DNA of 32,000 bases from Fidelibacterota bacterium (GTDB lineage Bacteria > Fidelibacterota > Marinisomatia > Marinisomatales > S15-B10), in assembly GCA_036476315.1 (NCBI GenBank), contig JAZGBI010000098.1, forward strand, positions 1-32,000, read 5' to 3'. The first letter of the stretch is position 1, and every line of letters starts with the position of its first letter. The position numbers and the translations under genes are program-made. Of this stretch, positions 3,152 to 30,095 are shown in pieces. A model generated the notes under the pieces. That model was given only the letters and a program-made list of their open reading frames with translations, had not been told where the DNA came from and searched no databases.

Positions 3152-3163
3152 ACCACGGACCTG

Positions 3164-9587: not shown

Positions 9588-9736
9588 TGCCCCTCCTTCC
9601 CTTCAGCAGTTGGACAAATGGTACCGACTTCTCGTTATAAAATCAACTCAAATACGGTTTGTATGCTTCTTTTGCATGCTCTAAATTTTCCGGTCGTGGA
9701 ACCCAGATTAAGAAAACGTACGGAGAGAAGTCCACG

Positions 9737-12439: not shown

Positions 12440-12500
12440 ACCACAGATTACACGGAGTTCACCGAGACTGTCCTGACTTCTTCAACCGAGATAAGACACC

Positions 12501-13043: not shown

Positions 13044-13045
13044 GT

Positions 13046-13789: not shown

Positions 13790-13882
13790 TTTAGTCTCCT
13801 CTTAGTACCGGAAATAATGCAATACTTTTGCCTGACCTTCAATCTTTTTTCTTTTGCATCCTCACTGTAACTTCCCCCCACC

Positions 13883-15511: not shown

Positions 15512-15561
15512 ACAAAGAGACAGAGAGACGAGGTGAAGGGGCGAAGAAGGACAAAGTAGAC

Positions 15562-15946
15562 CTGGTAACCGAGATAAGATCAGACAGGGATCTGCATGTA
15601 TACGCGCTGGCCTTTGATGTGGCTATGGAAATCTTTGAGATCACGAGCGAATTTCCTGTAGAAGAAAGATGTTCCTTGATAGACGAAATTCGCAGATCCT
15701 CTCGTTCCGCGTGTTCCAACACGGCGGAAGCGTACCGCAAGCGGAAGATATAAGGCTGCATTCATTGCAAAACTGAGCGATGCAGAATCCGAAGCGGCCG
15801 GGACTCAGGTGTGGGTCGAATTCGCCCTCAAATGCAGATATATAACGGAGAACGCCGCCAACAAGATCTACAAACAGTACGACAACAGTATTGGTAAGCT
15901 GGTCACCATGATTAATAATCCCAAGAAGTGGATATTGAAGGTATAG
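15562..15946 (+). pseudogene. four-helix-bundle protein (23S rRNA intervening-sequence protein family), frameshifted with no canonical start
   Basis: Frame A reads ..RDLHVYALAFDVAMEIFEITSEFPVEERCSLIDEIRRSSRSACSNTAEAYRKRKI and stops at TAA 15751-15753. Frame B from 15749 continues YKAAFIAKLSDAESEAAGTQVWVEFALKCRYITENAANKIYKQYDNSIGKLVTMINNPKKWILKV and stops at 15944-15946. Joined, they match the family pattern (..EE...L..QirRaa.Si..NiAEG..r......F...A.GS..E..t.l.....g.i). One extra A near 15748 breaks the frame. There is no ATG/GTG/TTG between the upstream in-frame stop (15496-15498) and the conserved region, so the start coordinate given is nominal. Confidence 0.6.
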
Positions 15947-16000
15947 CTCCCAGTCTCCCTCTCTCCCATTCCCCTGGTCTCCCAGTCATCAACTTCCAGT

Positions 16001-17176
16001 TCAACCAACAACTTCCTTAAACACTCGCTTGAAGTTTTCCCCGAGAATCTTGCGAACATCACTCTTGGAATAGCCCCGATCCAGAAGTTTCTCTGTAATC
16101 GCGGGAAACTTCGTACAGTCTTCCAATCCCTGAGGGGGGACGGAAATGCCGTCAAAATCCGATCCAAGCCCCACATGGTCCGCACCGGTAAGCCGGACGA
16201 TGTGGTCGATGTGGTCTATGAGAATGTCAATGGGCGGTGCCACTTTGGCGAGTGGTTCTTCAAGCACCTCTATGCGGGCTCCCCAGAAGTCATCTGAATC
16301 CTCATCATAAAGAGCTCTGAGGGAATCCAGTTCATTCGCGTAATCCTCTTCCACTTGATCCGCTCGTGCAGAGAACGTGCTGTCAATAAAGCTCGGGTAG
16401 AAATTGACAAATACGACCCCACCATTTTCCTTCACAGCGAGGAGCTGATCGTCCTTCAGATTCCGGTAGTGAGGACAGAGGGCGTAGGCGGAAGAATGGG
16501 AGGCGATTACCGGCTTTGACGTTGTTTGCATGATGTCCCAGAAGGTCCGTTCCCCCACATGTGAGACATCCACAATTACCCCCAGGTCATTGCAAGTCTG
16601 GACAATCTCGCGCCCAAAATCCGTCAAACCGAGAAAAGGGAGGTCCTCCTCCTCCGCCTCATCCCTGGCAGAAGTGGCCCACGTGGTGGAATTGTTCCAG
16701 GTGAGTGTGAGATATCGCATGCCCCGGTTGAATAGGTGTTCCAGGTTTTCAAGACTATTCTCAATATGATGGCCTCCTTCCACACCGATAACGGCCGCCA
16801 GTTTTCCCGTCTCCTCGATTGCCAATAGGTCATCGTATGTTTTTGCCATTTCAAATTTCCCCGGCGCTTTCCCCTCAAGTTCATACAGGGCATCAATCTC
16901 GGCATTCGCCTGCTCAAAAGAACTATCCAGGGGGAAGAAAGAGGGGTTGATCCAGACGGAGAAAACCTGGACATCCACTCCCCCCGCCAGTAGCCTGGGA
17001 ATATCCGAATGACCCGATGATGTCCACTGCGTAATGTCTTCGCCCCTCATCACACGGAGAAGAACGTCGTTATGGGTGTCTGCCACATATGCCCGGTCAT
17101 GGAAATCCTGTACCGATTCGGTGCAGGCCAAGAATGCGCATAAGGACAAGAAAACTGGCGTGACCGTCCTTTTCAT
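16001..17176 (-). CDS. membrane dipeptidase (peptidase M19, renal dipeptidase family), likely lipoprotein
   Basis: DTHNDVLLRVM, DVSHVGERTFWDIM, ASHSSAYALCPHYRNLKDDQL and HVGLGSDFDGI are M19 blocks. ATG 17176 (MKRTVTPVFLSLCAFLACTE, lipobox-like) is preceded by GGAGG at 9 nt. The ORF opens further upstream at 17230. Confidence 0.88.
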   Translation of the reverse strand: MKRTVTPVFLSLCAFLACTESVQDFHDRAYVADTHNDVLLRVMRGEDITQWTSSGHSDIPRLLAGGVDVQVFSVWINPSFFPLDSSFEQANAEIDALYELEGKAPGKFEMAKTYDDLLAIEETGKLAAVIGVEGGHHIENSLENLEHLFNRGMRYLTLTWNNSTTWATSARDEAEEEDLPFLGLTDFGREIVQTCNDLGVIVDVSHVGERTFWDIMQTTSKPVIASHSSAYALCPHYRNLKDDQLLAVKENGGVVFVNFYPSFIDSTFSARADQVEEDYANELDSLRALYDEDSDDFWGARIEVLEEPLAKVAPPIDILIDHIDHIVRLTGADHVGLGSDFDGISVPPQGLEDCTKFPAITEKLLDRGYSKSDVRKILGENFKRVFKEVVG

Positions 17177-17287
17177 GACATGCTTCCTCCCTTTTCTAAT
17201 GCCAGATCTTCTCGGAATTATCTCTGTCAAATTCTCATCTCAACGGGTTTGCCACCATCTATTTACGGAGTCGGGGAAACAATCCCT

Positions 17288-18706
17288 CTAGACGGGCTCA
17301 AACTTTGCGGTGAAATGCCTCAGGAACTTCGCCTGCTCCACAATGCGAAAACCTCTGAGCTGTTCCCGTTTTTCCCAGACGCGTTTACACGCTTCAATCA
17401 CATAATCGATATGGCTTTGTGTATACACTCTTCGGGGAATAGCGAGTCTCACCAGTTCCATCTCCGCTGGCGTTTCCTCTCCCGTCTTAGGGTCCACCTT
17501 CCCGAACATCACCGAACCGATCTCCCCTGTCCGTATTCCACCCACCCGATACAGTTCAACCACCAGAGCTTCTCCGGGATATTCCAGGGAAGGAATGTGA
17601 GGTAAACTCGCTTTTGCATCGATATAGATCGCATGGGCGCCGGGCGGCTGGACGATAGGGAAGCCCGACTCTTCCAGAAACTTCCCGAGATACTGTGTTT
17701 CCGCAACCCGGTAAATAAGATATTCTTCACGGAGGACTTCTTTGAGTCCCACGGCAACGGCTTCCAGATCCCTTCCTGCCAGTCCCCCATAGGTGGGGAA
17801 GCCCTCTGTCAGGATGAGAAGATTTCTCTCCTCGCGGGCAAGATGGTCACTATTGGTGCACAGAAAGCCACCAATATTTGCCAGGCCGTCCTTCTTCGCG
17901 CTCATGGTACAGCCCTCTCCGTAGCTCATCATTTCTCGGACGATTTCCCAGACAGGCTTATTCCCATATCCCCTTTCGCGAAGCTTAATCAGGTAAGCAT
18001 TCTCAGCGAATCTGCAGGCATCAAAATAAAGGGGAATATCATGCCTGGAAAGAATCTCCTTAACGTTGCGAATATTCTCCATCGATACTGGTTGTCCCCC
18101 ACCTGAGTTGTTCGTAACCGTCAGCATGCAGAGGGGAATCTTTTCTCTCCCTACCTTTTTAATCAATGATTCCAGCTTATCCACGTCCATGTTTCCCTTG
18201 AACGGATATGGGTTCTGAGGATCCTTCCCTTCGTCAATGACCAAATCTTCGGCGATGGCACCCCTGAATTCGATATTGGCCCGGGTAGTGTCGAAATGTG
18301 AATTATTGGGAACCACATCGCCCGCGCTGCATGCGGCTGAAAAGAGAATGCGCTCAGCGGCCCGTCCCTGATGGGTTGGAATGACATGCTTGAATCCGAA
18401 GATTTCCTTCACCACATTTTCAAATCGCCGGTAACTCTCGCTCCCCGCATAGGCCTCGTCGCCCCGCATAATAGCACTCCACTGGTTGGCACTCATGGCA
18501 CCGGTGCCGCTGTCGGTGAGAAGATCGATAATCACATCCTGGGCATCAATCTGGAAGACATTGTAATCTGCCTGTTTGAGCACTTTCTCCCGGTGTTGGC
18601 GAGTGGTCATCCGGATCGGCTCGACCGATTTGATCTTGAACGGCTCGATTATGGTTCGGAAAGTGGTCCCAGCTTTGTTCAACTGATGGATCTCTTCTTT
18701 TCCCAC
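17288..18706 (-). CDS. tnaA: tryptophanase (beta-eliminating lyase family; tyrosine phenol-lyase not fully excluded)
   Basis: 472 aa. EPFKIKSVEP, IDLLTDSGTGAMS, PTHQGRAAE, the PLP-lysine block CTMSAKKDGLANIGGFL, DACRFAENAYLIK and LRHFTAKFEPV. SAKKD and RFAENAY agree with tryptophanase rather than TPL (SGKKD, RCVENAY) as I recall them. Confidence 0.8.
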   Translation of the reverse strand: MGKEEIHQLNKAGTTFRTIIEPFKIKSVEPIRMTTRQHREKVLKQADYNVFQIDAQDVIIDLLTDSGTGAMSANQWSAIMRGDEAYAGSESYRRFENVVKEIFGFKHVIPTHQGRAAERILFSAACSAGDVVPNNSHFDTTRANIEFRGAIAEDLVIDEGKDPQNPYPFKGNMDVDKLESLIKKVGREKIPLCMLTVTNNSGGGQPVSMENIRNVKEILSRHDIPLYFDACRFAENAYLIKLRERGYGNKPVWEIVREMMSYGEGCTMSAKKDGLANIGGFLCTNSDHLAREERNLLILTEGFPTYGGLAGRDLEAVAVGLKEVLREEYLIYRVAETQYLGKFLEESGFPIVQPPGAHAIYIDAKASLPHIPSLEYPGEALVVELYRVGGIRTGEIGSVMFGKVDPKTGEETPAEMELVRLAIPRRVYTQSHIDYVIEACKRVWEKREQLRGFRIVEQAKFLRHFTAKFEPV

Positions 18707-18748: not shown

Positions 18749-19486
18749 TCACCAGGATAATGTGAATCCAACCTTGACATCCGTGTCCCGCTCTTTCACG
18801 TTTTTCGGCGGTTGGGAGTTATACTGGTCCCGCCAGGTTGCCGTGATCATGAACTTTTCGGATGGGGTGGGAATGGAGAGTGTAAACTGGTTATCAATGA
18901 GAAGATGGGCAGGGTTTCGGACCAGGGGTTGGATAAAGATCATGTAATTAACAGTGATTCCGCTATCGAACTTCTTTTTGTACTTGGGCCGAACCGACAG
19001 ACGGTATTGTCTTCTTACTGCTTCGGCTTTGTAATCCTCTATCTCCCACAGATAGGCTACACTGACGGAAATTTCCTTCCCAGCCGTGTATTTTCCCCCG
19101 GCACCCAGTTGAACTCTTCTCTCGAGGAAGGTTGTGGAGTCGTACGCCCAGTACGACAGAAAGAATGGGGAAAAAGTCTCATGCGCCATGATCTCCAGGA
19201 GGAAAGAAGCGCTGCCATCGTGTTCGTAAAGAGCATCATTTAACTGTCCTCGCGTGTGGCTGACAGTGAATCTCACTTCACTGTCCGGCAGATTGATCCT
19301 TCCCAATTGCCCAAAGGGTTCTATGGACAGGTCTCCCGCATACTCACTGGACATTGCTACGGTATATGAAGTCAGGTGCGTATTCCCCTGCTGGGTTGTG
19401 AGAGATCCTGTGAAGGATCTTTCCCATTCCCCCGCCGAGACTGCTCCAACAGAAAGGACACTCAACAATATTACGACTCTTTTCAT
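18749..19486 (-). CDS. DUF481-like outer-membrane beta-barrel protein
   Basis: 245 aa with a signal peptide (MKRVVILLSVLSVGAVSA), alternating beta-strand pattern, an early GNT motif, and a C-terminus PPKNVKERDTDVKVGFTLSW resembling the DUF481/YdiY ending. Confidence 0.5.
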   Translation of the reverse strand: MKRVVILLSVLSVGAVSAGEWERSFTGSLTTQQGNTHLTSYTVAMSSEYAGDLSIEPFGQLGRINLPDSEVRFTVSHTRGQLNDALYEHDGSASFLLEIMAHETFSPFFLSYWAYDSTTFLERRVQLGAGGKYTAGKEISVSVAYLWEIEDYKAEAVRRQYRLSVRPKYKKKFDSGITVNYMIFIQPLVRNPAHLLIDNQFTLSIPTPSEKFMITATWRDQYNSQPPKNVKERDTDVKVGFTLSW

Positions 19487-19589: not shown

Positions 19590-20519
19590 CTAATCCACCA
19601 TTTCCGAACCGCCCAGAACGTCCTCAAGATTAAATCGACCTTCCTTTTCCATCTGCCGTGCCGCATCCACGATCGTCTTTCTTGCCATATTCACCTCTCG
19701 CTTCGGGATGGCCCCTTCCACGGGCTCATACATGGCCTGTTTTTTCTGCGGGAGGTTATTGAGAACCTTGTCCGAGGTCTCCTGAGGCAGACCCTTGAAA
19801 GCGAGTGCGATGGTATCCAGCTCGACCGTGTTCATGATTTCCCGAAGTAGGTTGTCGGGAAAGCTGAAGATGTCATCAAATGTTAGGTAGTACTTCTTGA
19901 TCTCTTTCACCAGGTCAGGTGATTCCCGGGAGATGGTTTCAAGGTATCTCTCCTCCTCCTCGGGAGGCATCTGGCCCAGAATATCAGCGATACTCTTTCC
20001 CCCACCGCGGGAGAAGTCCACGGCCCGGGGAAGGAAGTGAGACTTATGTTCCAATTGCGTGGCCACATTCACGATCGCTTCCAGTGGAACTTCACTCAGA
20101 TTACCCATTTCCATGAGTACCCTTCCTTTAACTTCCGGCGCTAGCCGGTTGATTACCACCATCCGCCTCTCGGATGAAACCTGGGCCGCGGCCATGGCGA
20201 TAATGCGAGGCTCTTCCACTTCCAGAAGTGCCGCGAGCTGCTCATCTGCGAGACTGTCAAGGAATTCGAAGGGTCGTTTCGCATCGGTCACATCCGATTT
20301 CTGGAGTTTCCTCGAAATAAAGGCAAGATAGAATTCATCAACGACTTGCTTTTTGATTAAAGAGGAAACGGGCTCCATTTCACGGATCCGGCTACGGATT
20401 TTTCTCACCTCCGTTTCTCCCAACCCCTTAATGAGTTTAACCGCAAGGCCCTCTCCAAGAACGGAAAAGACTATGGCCACTTTATCCAGGCCGGACAGTC
20501 TGTTATATTCGGTAATCAT
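19590..20519 (-). CDS. FliG-like rotor/switch protein (three-domain architecture, divergent C-terminal torque helix)
   Basis: 309 aa. The N domain LSGLDKVAIVFSVLGEGLAVKLIKGLGETEVRKI matches FliG L.G.eKAAilL..lGee.a..v.k.L...Ei. The middle domain is EEPRIIAMAAAQVSSERRMVVINRLAPEV..V..EM (canonical EHPQ.iA.iL..L....aa.vL..Lp.e). A GGGK linker follows. The C domain is YLTFDDIFSFPDNLLREIMNTVELDTIALAFKGLPQETSDKVLNNL (canonical MFvFEDl..lddr.iq.lLrevd...La.ALKga.eel.eki..Nm). Confidence 0.8.
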   Translation of the reverse strand: MITEYNRLSGLDKVAIVFSVLGEGLAVKLIKGLGETEVRKIRSRIREMEPVSSLIKKQVVDEFYLAFISRKLQKSDVTDAKRPFEFLDSLADEQLAALLEVEEPRIIAMAAAQVSSERRMVVINRLAPEVKGRVLMEMGNLSEVPLEAIVNVATQLEHKSHFLPRAVDFSRGGGKSIADILGQMPPEEEERYLETISRESPDLVKEIKKYYLTFDDIFSFPDNLLREIMNTVELDTIALAFKGLPQETSDKVLNNLPQKKQAMYEPVEGAIPKREVNMARKTIVDAARQMEKEGRFNLEDVLGGSEMVD

Positions 20520-20528: not shown

Positions 20529-22064
20529 CTACTTTTTCTTTTTCTTCTTCCCCTTTTTTTCCTCTTCGGGGGGTGCTGCGGGAGGTGCCTCTTCAGGGGC
20601 CGGAGCCGCTTCAGCCTGAGGGGGTGCCTCTTCTTCCAGCCACTCCTTCACAATGCCGGTTGCCGTCTCGGGCTCACTCACGGCCGCGGACACGATGGAC
20701 TGGCGCGTCGATTTGACTTCGGATTGGAGAACCGCCGGATCTTCACCGGGTGCAACCGGGGGAACCGATGGGGGTGGAGGCGGCGTGGGCGGAGGTGTCA
20801 CTCGGGCCTCTCCGCCTTCAGATTTCGTCACTTTTTTTTTCGGGGGCCTCATCATCCAGGGAGGCGGCATAACGTACCGCGGCTTGCGTCTCCCATTGAA
20901 AAGGATGACAGCAGCGAGAGCCACAACCGCCAGCAATGAAATGGCACTCATGAGATAAATGGGGAGATTACTCACGCCCCCATTCGCCCGACTCATCTCT
21001 CTTTGAACCTGTTGCAGCATTGCAAGCTTTTCCCCTATGACGGAATCCAACCGGGCCTTCTCCTGTTCCATGGCGGTGACTTCATCCACCGCAGCCTGTT
21101 CTTCTTCATCGGTCATGCTGGCCGTTCCCAGCTCGACCCTCAGCTGATTGATTTCGCTGGCCAACTGAACCACTCTCAAGGAGTCTCGTGCCAGAAGGGC
21201 CTCTCTTTGCTCCTCAAACTCTCGACTGAGCCGCTCATTTTCAAGCTTTTGCAGTTCCAAACGCCAAACGGACTGTTCTTCCTCGCGGCGACTGGCTTCT
21301 TCATCCTTCCACCTCTCCAATTCCTGGCGCCAATCCTCCGCAACCTTTGCGTCGGTTTCAGCCTGTTTCTCTTCAAGCTGATCAATCTTCTGGGCAATAC
21401 TCCGCAGTATGATGGCTTCGGCAGTCCGCTCGTCCCTCCTCACCTTAAAGGAAGCTGTCATGATGCTCAACACATCACCCCGGCTGCGGTCATAATGCGA
21501 AGCAACCATAATGATTTGACGTACATTCTCAATCAACTCCGGAGATGACGCTTCCGGTAGAATACAGCTGATTTCCATTTTCTCTATCATAGGTATCGAA
21601 GCCGTAATGTCAGTGTACGATTGAGATATGATCCGTGCCCCTTCTCTTGAGGAAGGCTCCGGGAGGGCCTCTTCGAGTTCCACCACAGACGGCTCTTCAG
21701 TTTCTTCCTCCTCTTGTTCTACCTGGAAATCGAATCCGGGTATGGGGATACCCGTCACCCTTGACTTTCTCCCCTGGCGTTCTTCGGCAGGGGTGGGTGC
21801 GGATTTTTCCGGCGCTTCCTTGGGGGACGGCTCAAATGTCACTTCTTCCCTTACAGTGGGGGTGAACTTCAGATCCACCGTGACATCCAACACATACCGG
21901 TGGTCAGCCAGCACCTTTGACAGGGCAGATTCGATACGTTTTCTAAAATCGTTTTCCAGCATCAACTTCTGTGCCAGATAGGTAGACTCTTGACCCATAC
22001 TTACACCCACAATCGTAGCCCCAACCAGGGTGGCCGCCGCCATAAATGTCAATCTCCTTTTCAT
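20529..22064 (-). CDS. minimal FliF-like (MS-ring family) membrane protein: N-terminal TM, split RBM3-like core, long coiled coil, C-terminal TM, Pro-rich cytoplasmic tail with a FliG-binding-type motif
   Basis: 511 aa. LENDFRKRIESALSKVLADHRYVLDVTVDLKFTPTVREEVTFEPS aligns by eye with Salmonella FliF FANDVESRIQRRIEAILSPIVGNGNVHAQVTAQLDFANKEQTEEHYSPN. IEKMEISCILPE...VRQIIMVASHYDRSRGDVLSIMTASF aligns with IERLSVAVVVNY...IEDLTREAMGFSDKRGDTLNVVNSPF. The second TM is LPIYLMSAISLLAVVALAAVILF. The tail ..EPETATGIVKEWLEEE compares with the FliF C-terminus ..DPRVVALVIRQWMSND. Confidence 0.75.
   Translation of the reverse strand: MKRRLTFMAAATLVGATIVGVSMGQESTYLAQKLMLENDFRKRIESALSKVLADHRYVLDVTVDLKFTPTVREEVTFEPSPKEAPEKSAPTPAEERQGRKSRVTGIPIPGFDFQVEQEEEETEEPSVVELEEALPEPSSREGARIISQSYTDITASIPMIEKMEISCILPEASSPELIENVRQIIMVASHYDRSRGDVLSIMTASFKVRRDERTAEAIILRSIAQKIDQLEEKQAETDAKVAEDWRQELERWKDEEASRREEEQSVWRLELQKLENERLSREFEEQREALLARDSLRVVQLASEINQLRVELGTASMTDEEEQAAVDEVTAMEQEKARLDSVIGEKLAMLQQVQREMSRANGGVSNLPIYLMSAISLLAVVALAAVILFNGRRKPRYVMPPPWMMRPPKKKVTKSEGGEARVTPPPTPPPPPSVPPVAPGEDPAVLQSEVKSTRQSIVSAAVSEPETATGIVKEWLEEEAPPQAEAAPAPEEAPPAAPPEEEKKGKKKKKK
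20832..20840 (-). repeat. A9 homopolymer in the coding strand of the fliF-like gene (Lys-Lys-Lys)
   Basis: The + strand has T9 at 20832-20840, which equals AAA AAA AAA (K409-K411) just after the second TM. Further A-rich runs encode the C-terminal KKGKKKKKK. Confidence 0.9.
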
Positions 22065-22089: not shown

Positions 22090-22872
22090 TTATTCTTCCT
22101 TTTCTACTTTCTGACTCCCGGTCACTCCTGCAGAGCCTCCAGGAGTGGCCTTGAAAGTAATCTCGACCCGCCTGTTTCTCGCCTTTAGTGCAACCGTTTC
22201 ATTCTGCCTCCTGATAATATCTGGGGTTATTAATCGATCCGTAGGGCGATCTCTGGGAACGTTCTCAGCCAATCCGACAGCCTCCAACCGTGTGGGATCA
22301 ACGCCTAACTTAATCAGCTCCCGGACAACGCCGGCAGCACGGGCTGCTGAAAGTTCCCAGTTACTGGGATACTTATCCTGATATCCCTTCGGAAGCGGGT
22401 CACTGTCTGTGTGTCCTTCAACCGCCACAGGAAACTTATTGCCAGGCCTATTTATGGTAGGGACGAGCGTTTCCAATACCTGAACGATACCGGTCATCAA
22501 TTCAGCGGAGCCGGAAGAAAAACTAATTTCCGATGGAATGGCAATTGTCACACCCTTGGGGCTGGTGGATACTTCAACACCCTCAAGCGTATCTTCATTC
22601 TCTTCCAACATTTCAGTGACCGCCTTCTTAACATCAGCCAGATTCATTGCTTGCCCTTCTTTGGTAACCTTGCCAACCTTTTTGCCCATGGAATCGGCCA
22701 TTTCCTGCAGCTTAACCGGATCAATGGTCGAGATGGCCGCCAGCAAAACGAAGAATGCCAATAGGAGGGTCATCATGTCGGCAAAGGTGCTAAACCAACC
22801 GGGGAGCCCCTCTTCAACTTGAGCGCGACCCTTTTCTATAAGTCGCTTTTTCTCTGTCGCCGATACGGCCAA
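22090..22872 (-). CDS. motB: MotB-type stator protein (OmpA-like peptidoglycan-binding C-terminal domain)
   Basis: 260 aa. WFSTFADMMTLLLAFFVLL is a single TM with the conserved Asp (residue 32). The OmpA-like domain reads FSSGSAEL...VEGHTDSDP...SNWELSAARAAGVVREL...NRRVEITF. The TTG start lies 5 nt after the motA stop. Confidence 0.88.
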   Translation of the reverse strand: MAVSATEKKRLIEKGRAQVEEGLPGWFSTFADMMTLLLAFFVLLAAISTIDPVKLQEMADSMGKKVGKVTKEGQAMNLADVKKAVTEMLEENEDTLEGVEVSTSPKGVTIAIPSEISFSSGSAELMTGIVQVLETLVPTINRPGNKFPVAVEGHTDSDPLPKGYQDKYPSNWELSAARAAGVVRELIKLGVDPTRLEAVGLAENVPRDRPTDRLITPDIIRRQNETVALKARNRRVEITFKATPGGSAGVTGSQKVEKEE

Positions 22873-22877: not shown

Positions 22878-23666
22878 CTACTCTTCTCTTTTCCACTCTT
22901 TCGGTGGAATAAATGAATTCAGTTTTTCACGTACGATGAGGGGATGTTTTTTCTGATGTATGAGCCTAGCAGCCTCTACCAGCATTGCCTGCATCGTACT
23001 GGTTTGAGAGATACGGGAATTAAGCTTTGCTGCCATGGGCAGAAAGAAGAGATTTGCAAGCACGGCTCCATAAAACGTTGTGATAAGCGCCGCCGACATA
23101 CCTACTCCAAGGGCTTCTGTACCGCCGCCCCCTTCACCACCAAATCCTGAAAGCATGATCACCAGTCCGATGAGTGTCCCGATCATCCCCCACGCCGGCG
23201 CCATGTTTCCCATGGTCTTGAACAGCTCTGCCTGGTGCTTCTCACGGATTTCTCTGTAATCAATACGCGTATTCAGAATCTCGATGATCTCGGGCTCTGA
23301 ATACCCATCCACCACCATCTGAACACCGTCTTTGAAGAAGAAATTCCTGATTCCCCCAATAGCCTGTTCCAATTCTGCCGGTCCTTTTCTTGCGGACTCC
23401 GACACTCCTACCGCCGCATCGACAAGACCTCCCAACCTTACGACTCCGCCTTTGAAGACCGCCCCCATGGCGGCTCCCAGTTTCATGACCTCCGAGAGTG
23501 GAAATGCAACGGAGACTGAAGCTACCATTCCGCCGACTACAATTGCGAAGCTGGCTGCGGAAACGAAACCGCCCACACCTGCACCCACGGCCGAGGCAGC
23601 GATAAAGATTCCCCCACTTATGGAAACCAACCCAATCAGGATTCCTACGAGAGTTGCTATGTCCAT
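22878..23666 (-). CDS. motA: MotA/PomA-type stator protein
   Basis: 262 aa. MDIATLVGILIGLVSISGGIFI is a MotA/PomA-type N-terminus. There is a cytoplasmic loop of about 100 aa between TM2 and TM3. APAWGMIGTLIGLV and FYGAVLANLFFLPMAAKL carry the two conserved prolines (P157, P210). This is a four-TM MotA topology rather than three-TM TolQ/ExbB. Confidence 0.88.
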   Translation of the reverse strand: MDIATLVGILIGLVSISGGIFIAASAVGAGVGGFVSAASFAIVVGGMVASVSVAFPLSEVMKLGAAMGAVFKGGVVRLGGLVDAAVGVSESARKGPAELEQAIGGIRNFFFKDGVQMVVDGYSEPEIIEILNTRIDYREIREKHQAELFKTMGNMAPAWGMIGTLIGLVIMLSGFGGEGGGGTEALGVGMSAALITTFYGAVLANLFFLPMAAKLNSRISQTSTMQAMLVEAARLIHQKKHPLIVREKLNSFIPPKEWKREE

Positions 23667-23675: not shown

Positions 23676-25040
23676 CTACTCCGTACTAAAGCTTGTGGTT
23701 TTTAGCCGATTCTCGTGCAACGCCTTCAATATATTTCGAACATCATCATACTCGGGATCCATCTTAAGCGCCAGATTCCAGTTGATGGTGGCTCTCTGAA
23801 TATCCCCAAGTTTGTAATAGATGGATCCCCGCCGAGCATAGGCCAACGCCAGATTGGGATTCAATTCCAGAGAGGTTTCCACTTCCTGGAGTGCTTCACG
23901 GTAGTCTCCCGAATAGAAGTATCTCAGAGACCGAGACAGATGACGCATGGCCCGGTTCAGATTCTTCTGGCCAATGCCTCTTTCCAACCGCAATGTATTC
24001 ACAGAATCGTCCAGAGTAACCGACTTCTGCCTCAACTGGGCCACCTCGGCACCGAGGTTTCGGGTCTGATATCTGGACACTCTCAGGGAATCTCGCAGAA
24101 CCGCCACGGCATAGTCCGCGGCAAGAAGAGTCGTATCGAGCATGGCTGCCTCGGGAATGGGAGATGGTGCGCCCGGGAGCCCCGGGACCTCCCTCACGGC
24201 AGCGGCCCTGGGTACCGACATATCAAGACCGATGGTGAATCCCGGATGATCCGCTCCGTACGGCTCCTCGGAAAACGTGGGCAAATTTTCTATGTGGGTG
24301 AATCCTAGGCCCAGGCGATAATCCGAGGTAAGGGGGATGCGGAGTCCCACATTGATGCCCGACCCGTCGAATTCACCCACAATATCCAAACCACCCCACT
24401 GGGGTAAGAAAGGCGTGGTTAACAGAAATCCCGCAAAAACACCGACGTTGGAACCGCTCGACGTGGTGTCCGCTGCCGCGGTCGACTCCCGCGTCACCAA
24501 CGCCTGCGAAAACCCTCCCGTTCCGAAACCGATGTACGTGCTGAGATGGTAGCCACCGAATGGCTTCTCACTCCCAATAACGCCGAAAAAGGAAAGGAGC
24601 TTTGTATCCAAATTCAATCCGTTTTCCGTCGCATTTTCAAAAACAACATCATGAAGTCCCAGGGAAAAAGAGATGTTATCACGTACGTACACCCGCTGCT
24701 GAAAATGGAAACCGAATTCCGCCGGCGCCACGTACTGGGACGTATCCAGAAGCACTAAAGATGTGGTGTCAGCCCCCTGACCAGAAGAAAATCCGAGAGT
24801 GAACCTGTCGGTGACATCCATCTGGAAGTAGACTCCTCGGGCCACGTTGAAAGGGGAAAAGTTGTGGATTTCAGCCCCGAAGCCCGTGCTGAATAGATAG
24901 GGTGAACGGGCGGTGCGCGTGGTGGGAATTTTCATCATTACTCCGGGGCGCGTATACGCCACCCGGGTTAACGAATCCAACGGTGAAATGGCCACCACCA
25001 AAAACATTACCACAAAAATTGTCTTTACTTTCCCAATCAT
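23676..25040 (-). CDS. secreted beta-rich domain + coiled coil + C-terminal TPR protein, function unknown
   Basis: 454 aa with a signal/anchor (MIGKVKTIFVVMFLVVAISPL). About 270 aa have an amphipathic beta-strand pattern (GFHFQQRVYV, GGLDIVGEFDGSGINVGLRIPL, YRLGLGFTHI). A heptad-like segment follows, then TPR repeats (YSGDYREALQEVETSLELNPNLALAYARRGSIYYKLGDIQRATINWNLALKMDPEY). Confidence 0.6.
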   Translation of the reverse strand: MIGKVKTIFVVMFLVVAISPLDSLTRVAYTRPGVMMKIPTTRTARSPYLFSTGFGAEIHNFSPFNVARGVYFQMDVTDRFTLGFSSGQGADTTSLVLLDTSQYVAPAEFGFHFQQRVYVRDNISFSLGLHDVVFENATENGLNLDTKLLSFFGVIGSEKPFGGYHLSTYIGFGTGGFSQALVTRESTAAADTTSSGSNVGVFAGFLLTTPFLPQWGGLDIVGEFDGSGINVGLRIPLTSDYRLGLGFTHIENLPTFSEEPYGADHPGFTIGLDMSVPRAAAVREVPGLPGAPSPIPEAAMLDTTLLAADYAVAVLRDSLRVSRYQTRNLGAEVAQLRQKSVTLDDSVNTLRLERGIGQKNLNRAMRHLSRSLRYFYSGDYREALQEVETSLELNPNLALAYARRGSIYYKLGDIQRATINWNLALKMDPEYDDVRNILKALHENRLKTTSFSTE

Positions 25041-25042: not shown

Positions 25043-26020
25043 CTACCTCTCGGCGTTCCGCAGCTCCAGTTGAGCCAGTTTGAGATATTCACTGTCAGGA
25101 TAATTGTCTATGATATTGGCGAACGCTTCAATCGCTTGAATCTCATCCCCCATCTGGCGGTAGACCAGCCCGGTCAAGATCATGGCATCGTCCTGCTTAT
25201 CTGATCTGAATAGAGGCTCAATCGCCACCAATGTTCTCAGGGTCTCACCGTATTCACCCATCTGATAGTAGCAGTCCGCTATCCAGTAGAGAACGTTTCC
25301 GGCTGTAACATCATCAACGTCTCCAAGGTACAGCTCCGCAAAATGTCGCAGCGCCATGCTGAAATCCTCTCGTTGATAGGCAAAAACGGCATTCATATAG
25401 ACCGTCCGGTTAAAGGGCCGCTTTTCATTTGTCAGTCGACGTGACGGGGCTTCGACCAAATTAATCTCCATTGGACTTACCTGGGTCAATTCCTCTTCCC
25501 GGGGTTCCTCCGCAGCAACGGGTACGGTGACCTCCTCATCATCGGCTGCTTTAGTAGCCGTGGCGTCAGCGGGAGCCACGTTCAACGGCATTACTTCAGA
25601 CGTTGATACCCGGGCCTCCTCCGGGTGAGAGATCGGCTCCCTTGCCAACAGATCGGCTATCATGCCGCGCAAGTCCTCATTCTCTTGCCTCAGGCTCCCC
25701 ACCTCCCTCTCAAAAGCGGCCTCAAGAGTCTCAATCTTTTGGCTAATTCGATTCAATGTTTGCTGCATTTCTCTCGTGGATGCAATAAAGACAGATCCGC
25801 TGGGTGCCTTATCGACAAAGAATTTTACTTTCTCCGGGGGCGCTTTCACGAGCCGGGTAACTTCTTCATCCCCTGTAGCCGATTCAATCACAATTCCCAG
25901 ATCGAGAAAGAAAATGTCATTCCCCACGGGTCCCGCTGACTGGCCGGCCAGATAGCCTGAAAGTACCATCGCAAAAGCGAGATTTCGCAGCAGATAGATC
26001 ATGGCGCGAACGATGCTCAT
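25043..26020 (-). CDS. CpoB/YbgF-like periplasmic coiled-coil + TPR protein
   Basis: Signal peptide, coiled coil (QQTLNRISQKIETLEAAFEREVGSLRQENEDLRGMIADLL), acidic linker, then YMNAVFAYQREDFSMALRHFAELY...AGNVLYWIADCYYQMGEYGETL...DDAMILTGLVYRQMGDEIQAIEAFANIIDNYPDSEYLKLAQLEL. This is collinear with the YbgF C-terminal repeat pattern (Y..A......y..A...F..F...yP.s....nA.YWLGe.yy....y..A). ATG 26020 overlaps the upstream stop as ATGA; the ORF opens at 26035. Confidence 0.6.
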   Translation of the reverse strand: MSIVRAMIYLLRNLAFAMVLSGYLAGQSAGPVGNDIFFLDLGIVIESATGDEEVTRLVKAPPEKVKFFVDKAPSGSVFIASTREMQQTLNRISQKIETLEAAFEREVGSLRQENEDLRGMIADLLAREPISHPEEARVSTSEVMPLNVAPADATATKAADDEEVTVPVAAEEPREEELTQVSPMEINLVEAPSRRLTNEKRPFNRTVYMNAVFAYQREDFSMALRHFAELYLGDVDDVTAGNVLYWIADCYYQMGEYGETLRTLVAIEPLFRSDKQDDAMILTGLVYRQMGDEIQAIEAFANIIDNYPDSEYLKLAQLELRNAER

Positions 26021-27147
26021 TCGTACTCTTCCCAATCTATCGTATAAGAATAGCCGATATACGACCCAAATTCTGCGGGTATGACGAGTTCAAATGTCCC
26101 AGTTGCCCCCGGGAGAAGAGAGGAGTCCGTGGTGATACCAGAGTCGAAGGAATAGTAACTTCCCGAGACAAAAGAGGTCAGGGTTTGAGTTTCACCACTC
26201 CAGTTCTTCCTGAATACAAAATTCACTTTGACAAAATCTGACCGGCGGCCACCAATGTTCTTCACCTGGCCGGAAAAAGTGGTATTGTTGGACCGGTCCC
26301 TTTTTTCGGAAATATTTCCCATGAGAACAATATTGGCCGCTCGATCCCTGGCGGCAAGCCGTTCCGTGGGTTCTCCTGCCACATAGCGAGGTTGTGCCAG
26401 CTTCGGCATGGGAGGTGGACTGTAGGTCTCCCGAATCTGTTCGGGAATATATTCCGGCTCCTCCTCCGCAATAACGTTTTCCACAATCCGAACCACCTGG
26501 CTCCGGTCTATCACCAGATACCCTACCAACGTCTCGACTTTCAAGATTTCCTCATCTTGATACACGACTTTTCCAAAGACAGTGCTTCCGTTGTCTAGAA
26601 TAATCTCTTTGCTGTAAATGGAGAGGGGATTCGTCCACATTTCACTTCTCGCCTGAAGATCCCGAACCTGGCCTCCCAGATGATCCATTTCCGCCGCCAG
26701 TTTCTTCAGTTCAAAACTGAGTTCGGTGGTGACATATTCTTCCTGTGGCAACCGCTCAGCTTCTTTCCCTGCGGCAGCCGCTCCCGTTTCACCGGGCTTT
26801 TTCGCCACGACCAATGACAGTTCAATTTCCTGGTCTTCATCGGCCACCGCGAAATCGAGGGAGGCGGAACCTGCATCCTCCTCGGTCGCCTTCACACTAT
26901 ACCTGCCGGGCGACACCTTCTTAAACTCAAACTTACCCTTACCACCGAACCGCTTCCCCGTTGAGGTTTGGTCCACCTCTCCCCCGTCTGCATCGAGAAG
27001 CACCACGTCAGCAGCAGGTACTTTTTCCCCCTCTTGGTCTTTCACGACACCGCTGACGGTGTACGTCTCATCCTGAGCGACCAGGAATGACCCCACAAGG
27101 GCTGTAGCAAAAACAATAAGGATAAAGTTCTTGGCAGGTTGTTTCAT
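26017..27147 (-). CDS. secreted multidomain protein: CarboxypepD_reg-like beta-sandwich, coiled coil, small beta (SH3-like) domain, C-terminal FxLYD-like beta-sandwich
   Basis: 376 aa with a signal peptide (ILIVFATALVGSFLVAQ). YTVSGVVKDQEGEKVPAADVVLLDADG...GKFEFKKVSPGRYSV is CarboxypepD_reg-like. LSFELKKLAAEMDHLGGQVRDLQARS is coiled coil. IILDNGSTVFGKVVYQDEEILKVETLVGYLVIDRSQVVRIV is a small beta domain. The C-terminal FSGQVKNIGGRRSDFVKVNFVF...LLPGATGTFELVIP is FxLYD-like. Confidence 0.5.
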   Translation of the reverse strand: MKQPAKNFILIVFATALVGSFLVAQDETYTVSGVVKDQEGEKVPAADVVLLDADGGEVDQTSTGKRFGGKGKFEFKKVSPGRYSVKATEEDAGSASLDFAVADEDQEIELSLVVAKKPGETGAAAAGKEAERLPQEEYVTTELSFELKKLAAEMDHLGGQVRDLQARSEMWTNPLSIYSKEIILDNGSTVFGKVVYQDEEILKVETLVGYLVIDRSQVVRIVENVIAEEEPEYIPEQIRETYSPPPMPKLAQPRYVAGEPTERLAARDRAANIVLMGNISEKRDRSNNTTFSGQVKNIGGRRSDFVKVNFVFRKNWSGETQTLTSFVSGSYYSFDSGITTDSSLLPGATGTFELVIPAEFGSYIGYSYTIDWEEYE

Positions 27148-27210: not shown

Positions 27211-27239
27211 AGTGTAAACCCTCCGGTTCAAAATGTCAA
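27211..27239 (-). promoter_or_regulatory. candidate sigma70-type internal promoter (TTGACA-N17-TACACT) for the downstream seven genes
   Basis: The - strand reads TTGACA (complement of 27234-27239), exactly 17 nt, then TACACT (complement of 27211-27216). It lies in the only sizeable gap (160 nt, 27148-27307) of the cluster, about 65 nt upstream of the ATG at 27147. Confidence 0.35.
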
Positions 27240-30073: not shown

Positions 30074-30095
30074 CTTATTCCTTACTTGTCCCCTG

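What the first reader, a model, noticed from the sequence alone, without database searches (positions are those of the whole stretch)
20529..22064. Minimal FliF: RBM3-like core only, extra coiled coil of about 150 aa, and a retained FliG-docking tail
By eye the protein aligns to two blocks of Salmonella FliF that flank the RBM3/beta-collar region: ..RIQRRIEAILSPIVG..V.AQVTAQLDF.. and ..IERLSVAVVVNY...AMGFSDKRGDTLNVV..F.

The N-terminal half of canonical FliF (RBM1/RBM2, the part that surrounds the type III export gate and is shared with SctJ) has no counterpart. The sequence goes from the N-terminal TM straight into the RBM3-like block.

The collar insert is replaced by a short acidic/Pro-rich linker (residues about 76-140). 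A heptad-rich, highly charged segment (residues about 208-358, nt 20991-21443) is inserted before the second TM.

The cytoplasmic tail is Pro-rich, ends in poly-Lys, and contains EPETATGIVKEWLEEE, which resembles the FliF C-terminal helix that binds FliG (..VALVIRQWM..).

Loss of RBM1/2 fits a ring that does not house an export apparatus.
Basis: partly seen in the sequence, partly recalled or inferred. Interest (0 to 1): 0.82.

Follow-up and report, generated by a model that had tools for sequence, protein, structure and literature searches.

The report
Short FliF of a flagellum-less motor
A marine SAR406-group (Fidelibacterota) bacterium encodes a stripped-down FliF, the flagellar base-ring protein, in a conserved seven-gene cluster with MotA, MotB and FliG but no export, rod or filament genes nearby, which suggests an ion-driven rotor that works without a flagellum.

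Summary
The ORF is real (20529-22064, minus strand, 511 aa) and is a true but heavily reduced FliF.

- **FliF identity.** It matches Pfam PF08345 (FliF RBM3) above threshold, as do all 40 aligned relatives. None matches PF01514 (RBM1/2). The 18 best PDB matches to its AlphaFold model are all FliF RBM3/S-ring structures.
- **Layout.** Signal peptide (probably cleaved, not a TM helix), split RBM3 with a 67-aa acidic insert carrying an invariant PIPGF(D/E)F motif, a helical stalk of about 160 aa, one TM helix, and a Pro/Lys-rich cytoplasmic tail. The tail's two helices resemble the FliG-binding end of FliF. It ends in poly-Lys.
- **Context.** The gene sits in a strictly collinear seven-gene cluster: CarboxypepD_reg protein, CpoB-like TPR protein, beta-rich TPR protein, MotA, MotB, FliF', FliG. 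I found this cluster in 82 loci; 106 species genomes encode a relative, and every named one is Marinimicrobia/Fidelibacterota or FCB group.
- **Motor residues.** MotA keeps the R90/E98 equivalents, MotB keeps D32, the plug and the OmpA-like domain, and FliG keeps all three domains.

Best reading: a stator-driven FliG/FliF' rotor with no export gate or rod, passing torque to periplasmic and outer-membrane partners. What it drives is unknown. Ring formation, FliG docking and genome-wide absence of flagellar genes remain untested. I found no literature on it.

The parts
20529..22064 (-). FliF' : 511-aa RBM3-only FliF homologue (whole ORF including stop codon)
   Evidence: ORF. PF08345 at 28.7 bits. 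Foldseek top 18 hits are all FliF RBM3/S-ring. 40 of 40 relatives hit PF08345 and none hits PF01514.
21993..22064 (-). Residues 1-24: Sec-type signal peptide, probably cleaved before Gln25
   Evidence: Basic n-region, short h-region, G/A/S at -1 in 66 of 66 relatives. Kyte-Doolittle only 1.8. Inference; no SignalP run was possible.
21834..21989 (-). Residues 26-77: first half of RBM3 (helix 1, strands 1-2)
   Evidence: AlphaFold2 helix to residue 51, strands 58-68 and 71-77. Aligned to FliF 238-275.
21633..21833 (-). Residues 78-144: acidic/Pro-rich insert at the beta-collar position. The invariant PIPGF(D/E)F motif is at residues 107-113 (nt 21726-21746).
   Evidence: pLDDT below 50. Composition. 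P107, I108, P109, G110, F111 and F113 are invariant. hhalign pairs the motif with E. coli GVPGALSN.
21444..21632 (-). Residues 145-207: second half of RBM3 (strands, helix 2, last strand with RGDxLxIxxxxF)
   Evidence: AlphaFold2 strands 145-152 and 157-170, helix 175-188, strand 198-204. R195, G196 and D197 invariant. Aligned to FliF 380-438.
20961..21443 (-). Residues 208-368: periplasmic helical stalk (coiled coil, with a Glu/Arg-rich stretch of weak heptad signal)
   Evidence: AlphaFold2 helices 212-313 and 319-391, pLDDT about 90. Heptad score 0.458 against 0.37 in shuffles. Length from RGD to TM is 157-176 aa in 70 species.
20892..20960 (-). Residues 369-391: the single transmembrane helix
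   Evidence: Kyte-Doolittle up to 2.77. Followed by a basic segment, so the C-terminus is cytoplasmic.
20742..20891 (-). Residues 392-441: basic and Pro-rich juxtamembrane linker with the invariant PPPW motif
   Evidence: 35% Pro, net charge +6. P401 and P402 invariant; P400 and W403 at least 90% conserved.
20625..20741 (-). Residues 442-480: two tail helices, the candidate FliG-binding element (EPETATGIVKEWLEEE at 464-479)
   Evidence: Helices 443-463 and 465-479. Best PDB match is the C-terminal FliG-binding helix of Vibrio FliF, residues 552-579. This is the best-conserved part across distant relatives.
20532..20624 (-). Residues 481-511: acidic/Pro-rich end and poly-Lys run
   Evidence: Poly-Lys in 66 of 75 relatives. 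Function unknown.
19590..20519 (-). FliG (309 aa) with N, M and C domains, starting 9 nt after FliF'
   Evidence: PF14842, PF14841 and PF01706. PDB hits to 3HJL and others. Alignment with E. coli FliG.
22090..22872 (-). MotB-type stator subunit (260 aa): plug, conserved Asp, OmpA-like peptidoglycan-binding domain
   Evidence: PF13677 at 60.6 bits and PF00691. Equivalent of D32 conserved.
22878..23666 (-). MotA/PomA-type stator subunit (262 aa)
   Evidence: PF01618. MotP 172.9 and PomA 147 bits against ExbB 19 and TolQ 12. Equivalents of R90, E98, P173 and P222 conserved.
23676..25040 (-). Secreted protein of 454 aa: beta-rich N-terminal domain of unknown fold, helical segment, two near-consensus TPR repeats
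   Evidence: TPR hits. 169 of 454 positions are at least 90% identical over 69 species. Present in 75 of 82 loci, always directly before motA.
25043..26035 (-). CpoB/YbgF-like periplasmic coiled-coil plus TPR protein (325-330 aa)
   Evidence: TIGR02795 YbgF E 3e-9, CpoB E 2e-6, BamD E 1e-7, all below cut-off. Present in 63 of 82 loci.
26017..27147 (-). Secreted 376-aa protein: CarboxypepD_reg beta-sandwich, coiled coil, two conserved C-terminal domains. First gene of the conserved cluster.
   Evidence: PF13620. 146 of 376 positions at least 90% identical. Present in 65 of 82 loci.

Best explanation
FliF' is the membrane-spanning rotor subunit of a flagellum-independent, stator-driven machine.

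Shown:
- It is a FliF homologue reduced to the RBM3 ring-building domain, a long periplasmic helical stalk, one TM helix and a cytoplasmic tail.
- It is encoded between a flagellar-type MotA/MotB stator and a three-domain FliG.
- The seven-gene cluster is conserved across Fidelibacterota (SAR406).

Inferred:
- The RBM3 domains oligomerise into a ring, as in the flagellar S-ring.
- Each tail binds the N domain of one FliG.
- MotA5B2-type units, anchored to peptidoglycan through MotB and probably Na+-driven, push on the FliG C-domain charges and turn the FliG/FliF' ring in the inner membrane.
- With no RBM1/2, no export gate and no rod, torque leaves through the stalk, the RBM3 ring and the acidic PIPGF(D/E)F loop.
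- It goes to the three co-conserved secreted proteins: the CpoB-like TPR protein, the beta-rich TPR protein and the CarboxypepD_reg protein. These link the rotor to the outer membrane or cell surface.

What the rotation is used for (surface movement, secretion or envelope maintenance) is unknown.
For: FliF identity:
- PF08345 above the gathering score, and in 40 of 40 relatives.
- TIGR00206 alignment to FliF 240-450; hhalign E 3e-4.
- The AlphaFold2 model's 18 best PDB matches are all FliF RBM3/S-ring (E 1e-6 to 6e-5). The next hit has E 0.08.

Tail:
- The best PDB sequence match is the FliG-binding end of Vibrio FliF.
- It is the most conserved segment among distant relatives.
- Tail helix 2 rises from pLDDT 63-69 to 78 when modelled fused to FliG, without any tail alignment.

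FliG:
- All three Pfam domains are present, and the top 13 Foldseek hits are FliG.
- It keeps the GGG linker and a +,+/-/-/+,+ charge pattern on the torque helix.

Stator:
- Equivalents of MotA R90, E98, P173 and P222 are conserved. MotB keeps D32, the plug and the OmpA-like domain.
- It scores as MotP/PomA, not ExbB/TolQ.
- It meets the plug and OmpA-domain stator criteria of PMC12505986, and its four-TM layout with a long cytoplasmic domain fits the MotA criteria.

Context:
- Gene order is identical in 82 loci.
- 106 species genomes encode a relative; the 80 loci kept are Marinimicrobia/Fidelibacterota, one 'FCB group bacterium', or untitled 'uncultured bacterium' MAGs.
- A 23%-identical relative of unknown lineage from Tara Oceans has the same cluster.
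- The genes are 3-25 nt apart or overlap.
- The accessory proteins are more conserved than FliF' itself.
- The only cultured member of the phylum is non-motile.
Against: - Nothing here shows ring formation, FliG binding or rotation.
- The tail similarity alone is not significant (E 0.11, level with chance Meis homeobox hits). Pairwise BLAST to the E. coli tail finds nothing.
- The fusion model is low-confidence overall (pTM 0.36), and no contact or PAE data were available.
- The FliG torque helix is 3 residues shorter than in E. coli and carries a conserved Pro. The EHPQR motif is degenerate.
- All the flagellar-type proteins score below NCBIfam equivalog cut-offs.
- I could not scan whole Fidelibacterota genomes, so absence of fliM/fliN, flhA, fliPQR, rod, hook and flagellin genes rests on local synteny, on the lack of any mention in phylum-level genome papers, and on one non-motile isolate.
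- The stalk geometry in the monomer model is physically ambiguous.
Confidence: 0.68

Rival explanations
1. The cluster is a proton- or sodium-driven envelope energiser of the Tol-Pal/TonB kind rather than a ring-shaped rotor. On this view FliF' acts like TolA, as a few copies of an inner-membrane-anchored arm that spans the periplasm. FliG is only a cytoplasmic adaptor between stator and arm. The output is outer-membrane tethering or cell-division-linked envelope remodelling.
For: - The second gene resembles CpoB/YbgF of the tol-pal operon (TIGR02795 E 3e-9, CpoB E 2e-6).
- FliF' has a helical periplasmic region of about 160 aa, like TolA domain II.
- The partners are secreted TPR/coiled-coil proteins.
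- The cluster is retained across the phylum, as expected for a housekeeping envelope function.
Against: - RBM3 is a ring-building motif, and the model matches only FliF S-ring structures.
- The stator is flagellar-type, with the rotor-facing R90/E98 charges, and scores only 12-19 bits against TolQ and ExbB.
- FliG keeps the torque-helix charge pattern and all three domains. That is hard to explain without a stator-rotor interface.
- The CpoB-like hits are below cut-off.
Confidence: 0.15
2. The organisms are flagellated after all. FliF' is then one half of a split FliF, or an accessory second rotor protein, and an SctJ-like RBM1/2 protein plus the export, rod, hook and filament genes are encoded elsewhere in the genome.
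For: - Whole genomes could not be searched here.
- FliF', FliG, MotA and MotB are all of flagellar type.
- Other FCB-group lineages, such as Caldithrix, carry full flagellar gene sets.
Against: - None of the 82 loci (about 20 kb each) has another flagellar gene next to the cluster, and the usual fliE-fliF-fliG-fliH-fliI order is absent.
- Instead, three secreted TPR/coiled-coil proteins are strictly co-linear with the cluster.
- A 160-aa stalk between RBM3 and the membrane would misplace the S-ring relative to a rod.
- The FliM-binding EHPQR motif of FliG is degenerate.
- The cultured Fidelibacter is non-motile, and three phylum-level genome papers mention no flagella.
Confidence: 0.1
3. The cluster is a decaying remnant of an ancestral flagellar locus with no present function.
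For: The proteins are divergent, all below equivalog cut-offs. FliF' has lost domains.
Against: - The reading frames are intact, and gene order is identical in 82 loci; 106 species genomes encode a relative.
- Across those loci MotA is 64-80% identical to the window's copy (42% in the distant Tara relative), with the catalytic residues kept.
- Dozens of positions are invariant in FliF' and in the accessory proteins.
Confidence: 0.03
4. The MotAB-like pair belongs to a Zorya-type anti-phage defence system.
For: Zorya uses MotAB-like ZorA/ZorB. MotB here hits ZorB models (E 5e-18), as any MotB would.
Against: No ZorA, ZorC or ZorD match for any of the seven proteins. MotA is short and PomA-like, without the long ZorA tail. 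The cluster is part of the phylum's core genome, not patchily distributed.
Confidence: 0.01

Closest known systems
Canonical flagellar MS-ring protein FliF (Salmonella/E. coli/Vibrio; e.g. PDB 6SD1, 7CG7, 8Z5S)
   Same: RBM3 fold with an insert at the same position, the RGDxLxVxxxxF strand, a TM helix followed by a cytoplasmic tail whose last helix ([DE]P-x8-[IV][VI][KR][EQ]W[LMI]) lies where FliF binds FliG, and a fliG gene immediately downstream.
   Different: No RBM1/RBM2. The insert is 67 aa and low-complexity instead of the long beta-collar insert of canonical FliF. A helical stalk of about 160 aa lies between RBM3 and the TM helix. The N-terminus is probably a cleaved signal peptide rather than TM1. 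There is a poly-Lys end. There are no neighbouring fliE/H/I/J or export genes. It scores 33.9 bits against the 129.75-bit cut-off of TIGR00206.
Chlamydiaceae short FliF-FliG fusion (Bergeron 2016, PMC4768692)
   Same: A naturally reduced FliF in bacteria not known to be flagellated, physically coupled to FliG.
   Different: The reduction is the opposite one. Chlamydial FliF keeps RBM2 (plus a second predicted RBM), lacks the SpoIIIAG-like RBM3 domain, and is fused to a FliG M-like domain. Its proposed partner is a type III secretion system. Here only RBM3 is kept, FliG is a separate three-domain protein, and the partner is a MotAB stator.
SpoIIIAG of the sporulation channel
   Same: Membrane anchor plus a single split RBM with an insert, which forms a large ring on its own (background from PMC4768692).
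   Different: No SpoIIIAG structure appears among the Foldseek hits, whereas 18 FliF entries do. SpoIIIAG has no FliG-binding tail, no stalk and no stator partners.
Flagellar stator-rotor pair MotA/MotB-FliG (FIT stators of Puente-Lelievre et al. 2025, PMC12505986)
   Same: Four-TM MotA with the R90/E98 and P173/P222 equivalents, MotB with Asp, plug and OmpA-like domain, and FliG with N, M and C domains and charged torque helix.
   Different: The context is not a flagellum. MotA lacks the E. coli TGI5 insert and is PomA-like. The FliG helix between N and M is about 35 aa shorter, the torque helix is 3 residues shorter with a Pro, and EHPQR is degenerate.
Other 5:2-motor machines that send force across the periplasm: TolQRA-Pal-CpoB, and GldLM of Bacteroidota gliding/type IX secretion
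   Same: A functional analogy only. In each case an ion-driven inner-membrane motor is coupled to a long helical periplasm-spanning protein and to outer-membrane partners. The cluster also has a CpoB-like TPR protein. The description of GldLM rests on my own knowledge.
   Different: Those motors act on their arm through transmembrane contacts and have no FliG or FliF-like ring. Here the coupling would run through a cytoplasmic FliG ring.

Membership tests
FliF (flagellar MS-ring protein) | RBM3 / 'FliF C-terminal' domain (PF08345) with FliF-like fold | tested here: met
   28.7 bits against a gathering score of 23.8. 40 of 40 relatives match, best E 6e-13. The top 18 Foldseek hits are FliF RBM3/S-ring, TM-score up to 0.63.
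FliF (flagellar MS-ring protein) | RBM1 and RBM2 (PF01514, the SctJ-homology region that surrounds the export gate) | tested here: not met
   No PF01514 hit in the window protein or in any of the 40 close and 24 diverse relatives. Only about 10 residues lie between the signal peptide and RBM3.
FliF (flagellar MS-ring protein) | Long beta-collar insert inside RBM3 | tested here: inconclusive
   The insert is at the right position but is only 67 aa, acidic and Pro-rich, and modelled as disordered. Its invariant PIPGF motif is paired by hhalign with the E. coli sequence GVPGALSN.
FliF (flagellar MS-ring protein) | Two TM helices flanking the periplasmic region | tested here: inconclusive
   The C-terminal TM helix is clear (Kyte-Doolittle 2.8). 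The N-terminal segment has the features of a cleaved signal peptide. No dedicated predictor was available.
FliF (flagellar MS-ring protein) | C-terminal cytoplasmic helix that binds the FliG N domain | tested here: inconclusive
   The best PDB match of the whole-protein and tail-only profiles is Vibrio FliF 552-579, but E is 0.11 for the tail alone. The fusion model raises tail pLDDT only to 78. Position, conservation and the adjacent fliG support it.
FliF (flagellar MS-ring protein) | Score above the NCBIfam equivalog cut-off (TIGR00206) | tested here: not met
   33.9 bits against a cut-off of 129.75.
FliF (flagellar MS-ring protein) | Assembly into a ring of about 33-34 subunits that holds rod and export gate | not testable with these tools
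   Only monomer prediction was available. No rod or export genes lie in any of the 82 loci.
FliG (rotor/switch protein) | N, M and C domains with FliG fold | tested here: met
   PF14842, PF14841 and PF01706. The top 13 Foldseek hits are FliG. Domain TM-scores are 0.82-0.86 for M and C.
FliG (rotor/switch protein) | Charged torque helix (E. coli R281, D288, D289, R297) | tested here: inconclusive
   The family consensus LP.KKQAM.E---PVEG..KR keeps the plus/minus/minus/plus order, but with a 3-residue deletion and a Pro.
FliG (rotor/switch protein) | EHPQR motif that binds FliM | tested here: not met
   Only Glu (at least 90% conserved) and Pro (60-90%) are kept. The His, Gln and R160 equivalents are lost. 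TIGR00207 scores 112.7 against a cut-off of 226.7.
Flagellar-type stator MotA/MotB (FIT) | MotA R90/E98 rotor-facing charges and P173/P222; four TM helices with an expanded cytoplasmic domain | tested here: met
   Family consensus RK-G..LE, aPAWG and LPM. MotP 172.9 and PomA 147 bits against ExbB 19 and TolQ 12, though below equivalog cut-offs. Criteria taken from PMC12505986. The helix count of the torque-generating interface was not modelled.
Flagellar-type stator MotA/MotB (FIT) | MotB conserved Asp in the TM helix, plug, and OmpA-like peptidoglycan-binding domain | tested here: met
   TFADMMT (the D32 equivalent), PF13677 at 60.6 bits, PF00691 at 44.5 bits.
Complete bacterial flagellum | Type III export gate, C-ring FliM/FliN, rod, hook and filament genes in the genome | not testable with these tools
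   None lies within about 10 kb of the cluster in 82 loci.
Zorya anti-phage defence | ZorA with a long tail, plus ZorC/ZorD or ZorE | tested here: not met
   PADLOC gives only generic ZorB (MotB) hits and nothing for the other six proteins.
Tol-Pal system | TolQ/TolR/TolA/TolB/Pal with CpoB | tested here: not met
   MotA scores 12 bits on TolQ. Only the TPR protein resembles YbgF/CpoB, and below cut-off (37 bits against 90).

The most novel reading that the evidence does not exclude
Fidelibacterota (SAR406), an abundant deep-ocean phylum with no known flagella, carry a self-contained rotary motor built from flagellar parts: a Na+/H+ stator, FliG, and an RBM3-only FliF on a helical stalk. It has no type III export apparatus, rod or filament. 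Three conserved periplasmic/outer-membrane TPR and coiled-coil proteins link it to the cell envelope. It would be either a secondarily stripped flagellar motor put to a new use (surface motility, secretion or envelope mechanics) or a surviving relative of the pre-flagellar rotor module.
Probability: 0.5. Interest if true: 0.92.

Novelty: new variant of a known kind. Interest (0 to 1): 0.8.

Why it matters
- **Origin of the flagellum.** It is disputed whether the rotary module (MotAB-FliG-FliF) and the type III export machine can exist apart. A natural stator/FliG/FliF' cluster without export gate, rod or filament would show that they can. It would also give a small system in which to study torque generation.
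- **A possible new machine.** If the rotor drives the co-conserved TPR and outer-membrane proteins, this would be a new way of sending rotation across the periplasm, in one of the most abundant uncultured phyla of the dark ocean.
- **A practical point.** fliG, motA and motB are used as markers of flagellar motility in metagenome trait surveys (for example PMC10359470). SAR406 genomes will give false signals.
- **A test of a recent proposal.** Flagellar-type (FIT) stator features were proposed as specific to flagellar motility (PMC12505986). This cluster would be a counter-example.

Tried and rejected
- **Genome-collection scan.** I used A1 instead, which biases the taxon list to the main clade.
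- **FliF'-tail/FliG co-fold.** An offline MAFFT test of a full-length FliF'+FliG fusion misaligned the FliF' rows. I therefore modelled tail plus FliG with FliG homologues only. The result was inconclusive.
- **Tail homology.** Pairwise BLAST of the tail against the E. coli FliF tail found nothing. The tail-only profile against PDB was not significant.
- **afdb50 fold search.** Unavailable.
- **Accessory proteins.** PDB sequence searches found only TPR repeats, so the beta-rich domain of the 454-aa protein stays unassigned. My guess of an outer-membrane barrel is untested.
- **Operon boundaries.** Promoter and terminator scans were not above chance.
- **Literature.** Nine full-text searches and direct reading of SAR406/Marinimicrobia genome papers found no description of the cluster and no statement on flagellar genes in the phylum.
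- **Rejected readings.** Zorya was rejected. A gene-decay remnant was rejected on conservation.


Full report
**The observation.** The minus-strand ORF 20529-22064 encodes 511 aa. The window matches contig JAZHCE011268101.1 (272 kb) of the MAG GCA_044232415.1. NCBI assigns its FliG to 'Candidatus Neomarinimicrobiota bacterium', which is the phylum Fidelibacterota of the FCB group, formerly Marinimicrobia or SAR406. NCBI starts the gene 21 nt later, giving 504 aa. The alignment of 40 relatives supports the longer form beginning MKRR.

**Is it FliF?**
- Pfam gives one hit, PF08345 (YscJ_FliF_C, the RBM3 domain). It scores 28.7 bits against a gathering score of 23.8 and covers residues 48-206 and the whole profile.
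- All 40 aligned relatives hit the same model, best E 6e-13. None of them, nor any of 24 more diverse relatives, hits PF01514, the RBM1/RBM2 region.
- NCBIfam's FliF model aligns residues 32-222 to positions 240-450 of FliF, with E 1.7e-8 but far below the equivalog cut-off.
- hhalign of the family against E. coli FliF aligns to residues 238-438 with E 3e-4.
- An AlphaFold2 model built on the 40-sequence alignment has mean pLDDT 70.6, and about 90 in the folded parts. It shows helix, two strands, a disordered insert, two strands, helix, strand.
- The model's 18 best PDB matches are all FliF RBM3 or S-ring structures (E 1e-6 to 6e-5, TM-score up to 0.63). The next match has E 0.08.
- The last strand carries the FliF signature RGDxLx[VI]xxxxF.

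So the protein is a real FliF homologue that keeps only RBM3.

**Anatomy.**
- Residues 1-24 have a basic start, a short hydrophobic core, and G/A/S at position -1 in 66 of 66 relatives, followed by a conserved Gln. This is the pattern of a cleaved Sec signal peptide rather than the first TM helix of FliF. That is an inference; no dedicated predictor was available.
- RBM3 is split by a 67-residue insert (78-144) with 27% acidic residues and 15% Pro, modelled as disordered. It sits where FliF carries its beta-collar.
- Inside the insert, P107, I108, P109, G110, F111 and F113 are invariant. hhalign pairs this motif with the E. coli FliF sequence GVPGALSN.
- Residues 208-368 form two long helices (212-313, and 319-391 running into the membrane). 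The heptad signal is modest, 0.458 against 0.37 +/- 0.039 in shuffles, and residues 258-285 show the weakest signal in a Glu/Arg-rich stretch.
- The stalk length is nearly constant, 157-176 aa in 70 species. A few metagenomic variants carry repeat insertions.
- Residues 369-391 are the only strong TM helix. The basic segment after it puts the tail in the cytoplasm, so the RBM3 blocks are periplasmic.
- The tail has a conserved PPPW motif, a Pro-rich linker, two helices (443-463 and 465-479), an acidic/Pro-rich stretch and a poly-Lys end.

**The FliG-docking claim.**
- The family profile matches Vibrio FliF in two co-linear places: RBM3 (270-454) and the extreme C-terminus (552-578, DVLKAVRALVANEPELAAQVVKNWMND).
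- A profile of the tail alone again ranks that helix first in the whole PDB sequence set. However, E is 0.11, level with chance hits. BLAST against the E. coli tail finds nothing.
- By eye, the E. coli end DPRVVALVIRQWI and the window's EPETATGIVKEWL align without gaps. Pro and Trp are identical, and five other positions are conservative substitutions.
- The tail is the best-conserved part of the protein in the most distant relatives, which are only 18-27% identical overall.
- A model of tail plus FliG, with an alignment for FliG only, raised the second tail helix from pLDDT 63-69 to 78. Without contact information this is only suggestive.

I regard docking as likely but not shown.

**Surroundings.** The gene lies in a tight minus-strand operon with gaps of 3-25 nt or overlaps:
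1. a secreted CarboxypepD_reg protein (376 aa);
2. a coiled-coil plus TPR protein resembling YbgF/CpoB and BamD (330 aa);
3. a 454-aa protein with a beta-rich N-terminal domain and two near-consensus TPR repeats;
4. MotA;
5. MotB;
6. FliF';
7. FliG.

A scan of one genome per species found 106 genomes encoding a relative. The 80 loci kept carry titles of Marinimicrobia, Neomarinimicrobiota or Fidelibacterota, one 'FCB group bacterium', or untitled 'uncultured bacterium' MAGs. In these loci, plus two Tara Oceans scaffolds that carry a relative only 23% identical, the seven genes occur in the same order wherever the contig is long enough. The counts out of 82 are: FliF' 82, MotB 80, FliG 80, MotA 76, the 454-aa protein 75, the first gene 65, the CpoB-like protein 63.

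No other flagellar gene lies in any locus. Two of the accessory proteins are better conserved than FliF' itself: 169 of 454 positions in the 454-aa TPR protein and 146 of 376 in the CarboxypepD_reg protein are at least 90% identical. A search of 1.84 billion cluster representatives returned only 155 relatives, so this is a compact family.

**Are the motor parts functional in type?**
- MotA keeps the equivalents of E. coli R90 and E98 (consensus RK-G..LE) and of P173 and P222.
- MotA lacks the E. coli-specific cytoplasmic insert. It scores best against the Na+-type MotP and PomA models (173 and 147 bits), against 19 for ExbB and 12 for TolQ.
- MotB keeps the channel Asp, the plug and the OmpA-like domain.
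- The plug and OmpA-like domain are two of the features Puente-Lelievre et al. give as diagnostic of flagellar stators (PMC12505986). MotA's four-TM layout and long cytoplasmic domain fit the other two, which I did not model.
- FliG has all three domains and a FliG fold. It keeps the Gly-rich hinge and a plus/minus/minus/plus charge order on the torque helix.
- FliG differs in three ways. The helix between the N and M domains is about 35 residues shorter. The torque helix is 3 residues shorter and contains a Pro. The FliM-binding EHPQR motif is reduced to E.PR, with the distal Arg lost. That last change fits a rotor without FliM.

**Most likely mechanism.**
- Shown: a flagellar-type stator, a FliG, and an RBM3-only FliF with periplasmic RBM3 and a cytoplasmic tail are co-inherited as one operon with three secreted TPR/coiled-coil proteins across a whole phylum.
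- Inferred: RBM3 forms a ring. Each tail holds one FliG. Peptidoglycan-anchored stator units turn this ring. Because there is no RBM1/2, export gate or rod, the torque leaves through the stalk, the RBM3 ring and the conserved acidic loop to the accessory proteins, and so to the outer membrane or cell surface.
- TPR domains commonly bind short peptides. The invariant PIPGF(D/E)F loop is therefore a candidate handle, which is speculation.
- The geometry is unresolved. The two stalk helices are unequal, so a simple hairpin would bury charged residues in the membrane. An extended stalk of about 22 nm would put the RBM3 ring close to the outer membrane.
- The purpose of rotation is unknown.

**Rivals.**
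- A non-rotary, Tol-Pal-like envelope energiser is supported by the CpoB-like gene and the TolA-like stalk. It does not explain the ring-building fold, the rotor-facing stator charges or the FliG torque helix.
- A true flagellum with a split FliF cannot be excluded, because whole genomes could not be searched. Against it stand the synteny, the stalk, the degenerate EHPQR motif, the non-motile isolate Fidelibacter multiformis (PMC11652737), and the silence of three phylum-level genome studies on flagella.
- Gene decay is contradicted by the conservation.
- Zorya defence was tested and not met.

**Comparison with what is known.**
- It works like a flagellar rotor-stator pair, but it is not a member of FliF in the strict sense. 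The defining RBM1/2 region is absent and the equivalog score is not reached.
- The nearest described oddity is the Chlamydiaceae FliF, about 330 aa, which lost the opposite part (it lacks RBM1 and RBM3) and is fused to a FliG M-like domain (PMC4768692).
- SpoIIIAG shares the 'anchor plus split RBM' plan but does not appear among the structural hits.
- Nine full-text searches and targeted reading found no description of this cluster. Databases label the proteins only automatically, as 'FliF C-terminal domain-containing protein' and 'FliG C-terminal domain-containing protein'.

**Verdict.** The protein is a new variant of FliF. The seven-gene system around it may be a new kind of rotary machine. 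Interest is high because it bears on whether the flagellar motor module can exist without the export apparatus, and because it occurs throughout an abundant ocean phylum. The main gaps are the genome-wide gene census and any direct evidence for ring formation, FliG binding and output.

Noticed in passing
window 27308-31984 (-): Upstream on the same strand lie a FecR-domain protein (521 aa), a 921-aa protein with a weak bacterial Ig-like hit, and the end of a further gene. They are closely spaced but occur in only one or two of the closest relatives, so they are not part of the conserved cluster. Function unknown.
   Followed up: partly
window 18749-19486 (-): A DUF481-like putative outer-membrane protein follows fliG after a 103-nt gap. 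It is present in only 7 of 82 loci. A beta-eliminating lyase (17288-18706) follows in 27 of 82 loci, which is probably plain synteny.
   Followed up: partly
window 22043-22064 (-): NCBI's gene call starts FliF' at the second ATG (22043, 504 aa), which has an AAGGAG 10 nt upstream. The family alignment supports the first ATG (22064), which supplies the basic start of the signal peptide.
   Followed up: yes
P0201, P0210, P0228, P0193, P0238; loci L004/L005 10001-11446: A distant subfamily (18-27% identity, Tara Oceans and other metagenomes) has the same seven-gene cluster. In these proteins a CxxC motif replaces the RGDxLxI strand of RBM3, and PIPGLP replaces PIPGF(D/E)F. This could be a periplasmic disulfide or metal site.
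   Followed up: partly
P0043, P0047, P0049, P0065 (relatives of window 20961-21443): A few metagenomic relatives carry 40-140 extra residues of tandem Glu/Arg/Ser/Leu-rich repeats inside the first stalk helix. In 70 species genomes the stalk length varies by only about 20 residues.
   Followed up: partly
window 20532-20624 and 20865-20876 (-): A C-terminal poly-Lys run (66 of 75 relatives) and a conserved PPPW motif just after the TM helix have no counterpart in canonical FliF and no explanation.
   Followed up: no
window 22878-23666 (-): MotA scores best against the Na+-type MotP and PomA models. From memory, it also has Thr residues where PomA binds Na+ (GMIGTLIGL, ALITTFYG). A sodium-driven stator would suit a marine organism. 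I did not check this against a PomA sequence.
   Followed up: partly
window 19590-20519 (-): Metagenome trait surveys that use fliG (with fliM and fliN) or motA/motB as markers of flagellar motility, such as PMC10359470, will detect this non-canonical FliG and stator in SAR406 genomes.
   Followed up: no
window 27211-27239 (-): A sigma-70-like site (TTGACA, 17 nt, TACACT) lies in the 160-nt gap before the first gene of the cluster. Such sites are no more frequent here than in shuffled sequence.
   Followed up: yes
window 309-17230: The rest of the window is ordinary housekeeping: a purine biosynthesis set (purB-, purF-, purD-, purN- and purH-like, 309-7012), BioY, an acyl-CoA synthetase, pyruvate phosphate dikinase (9659-12439), a short-chain dehydrogenase, and M28 and M19 peptidases.
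   Followed up: yes
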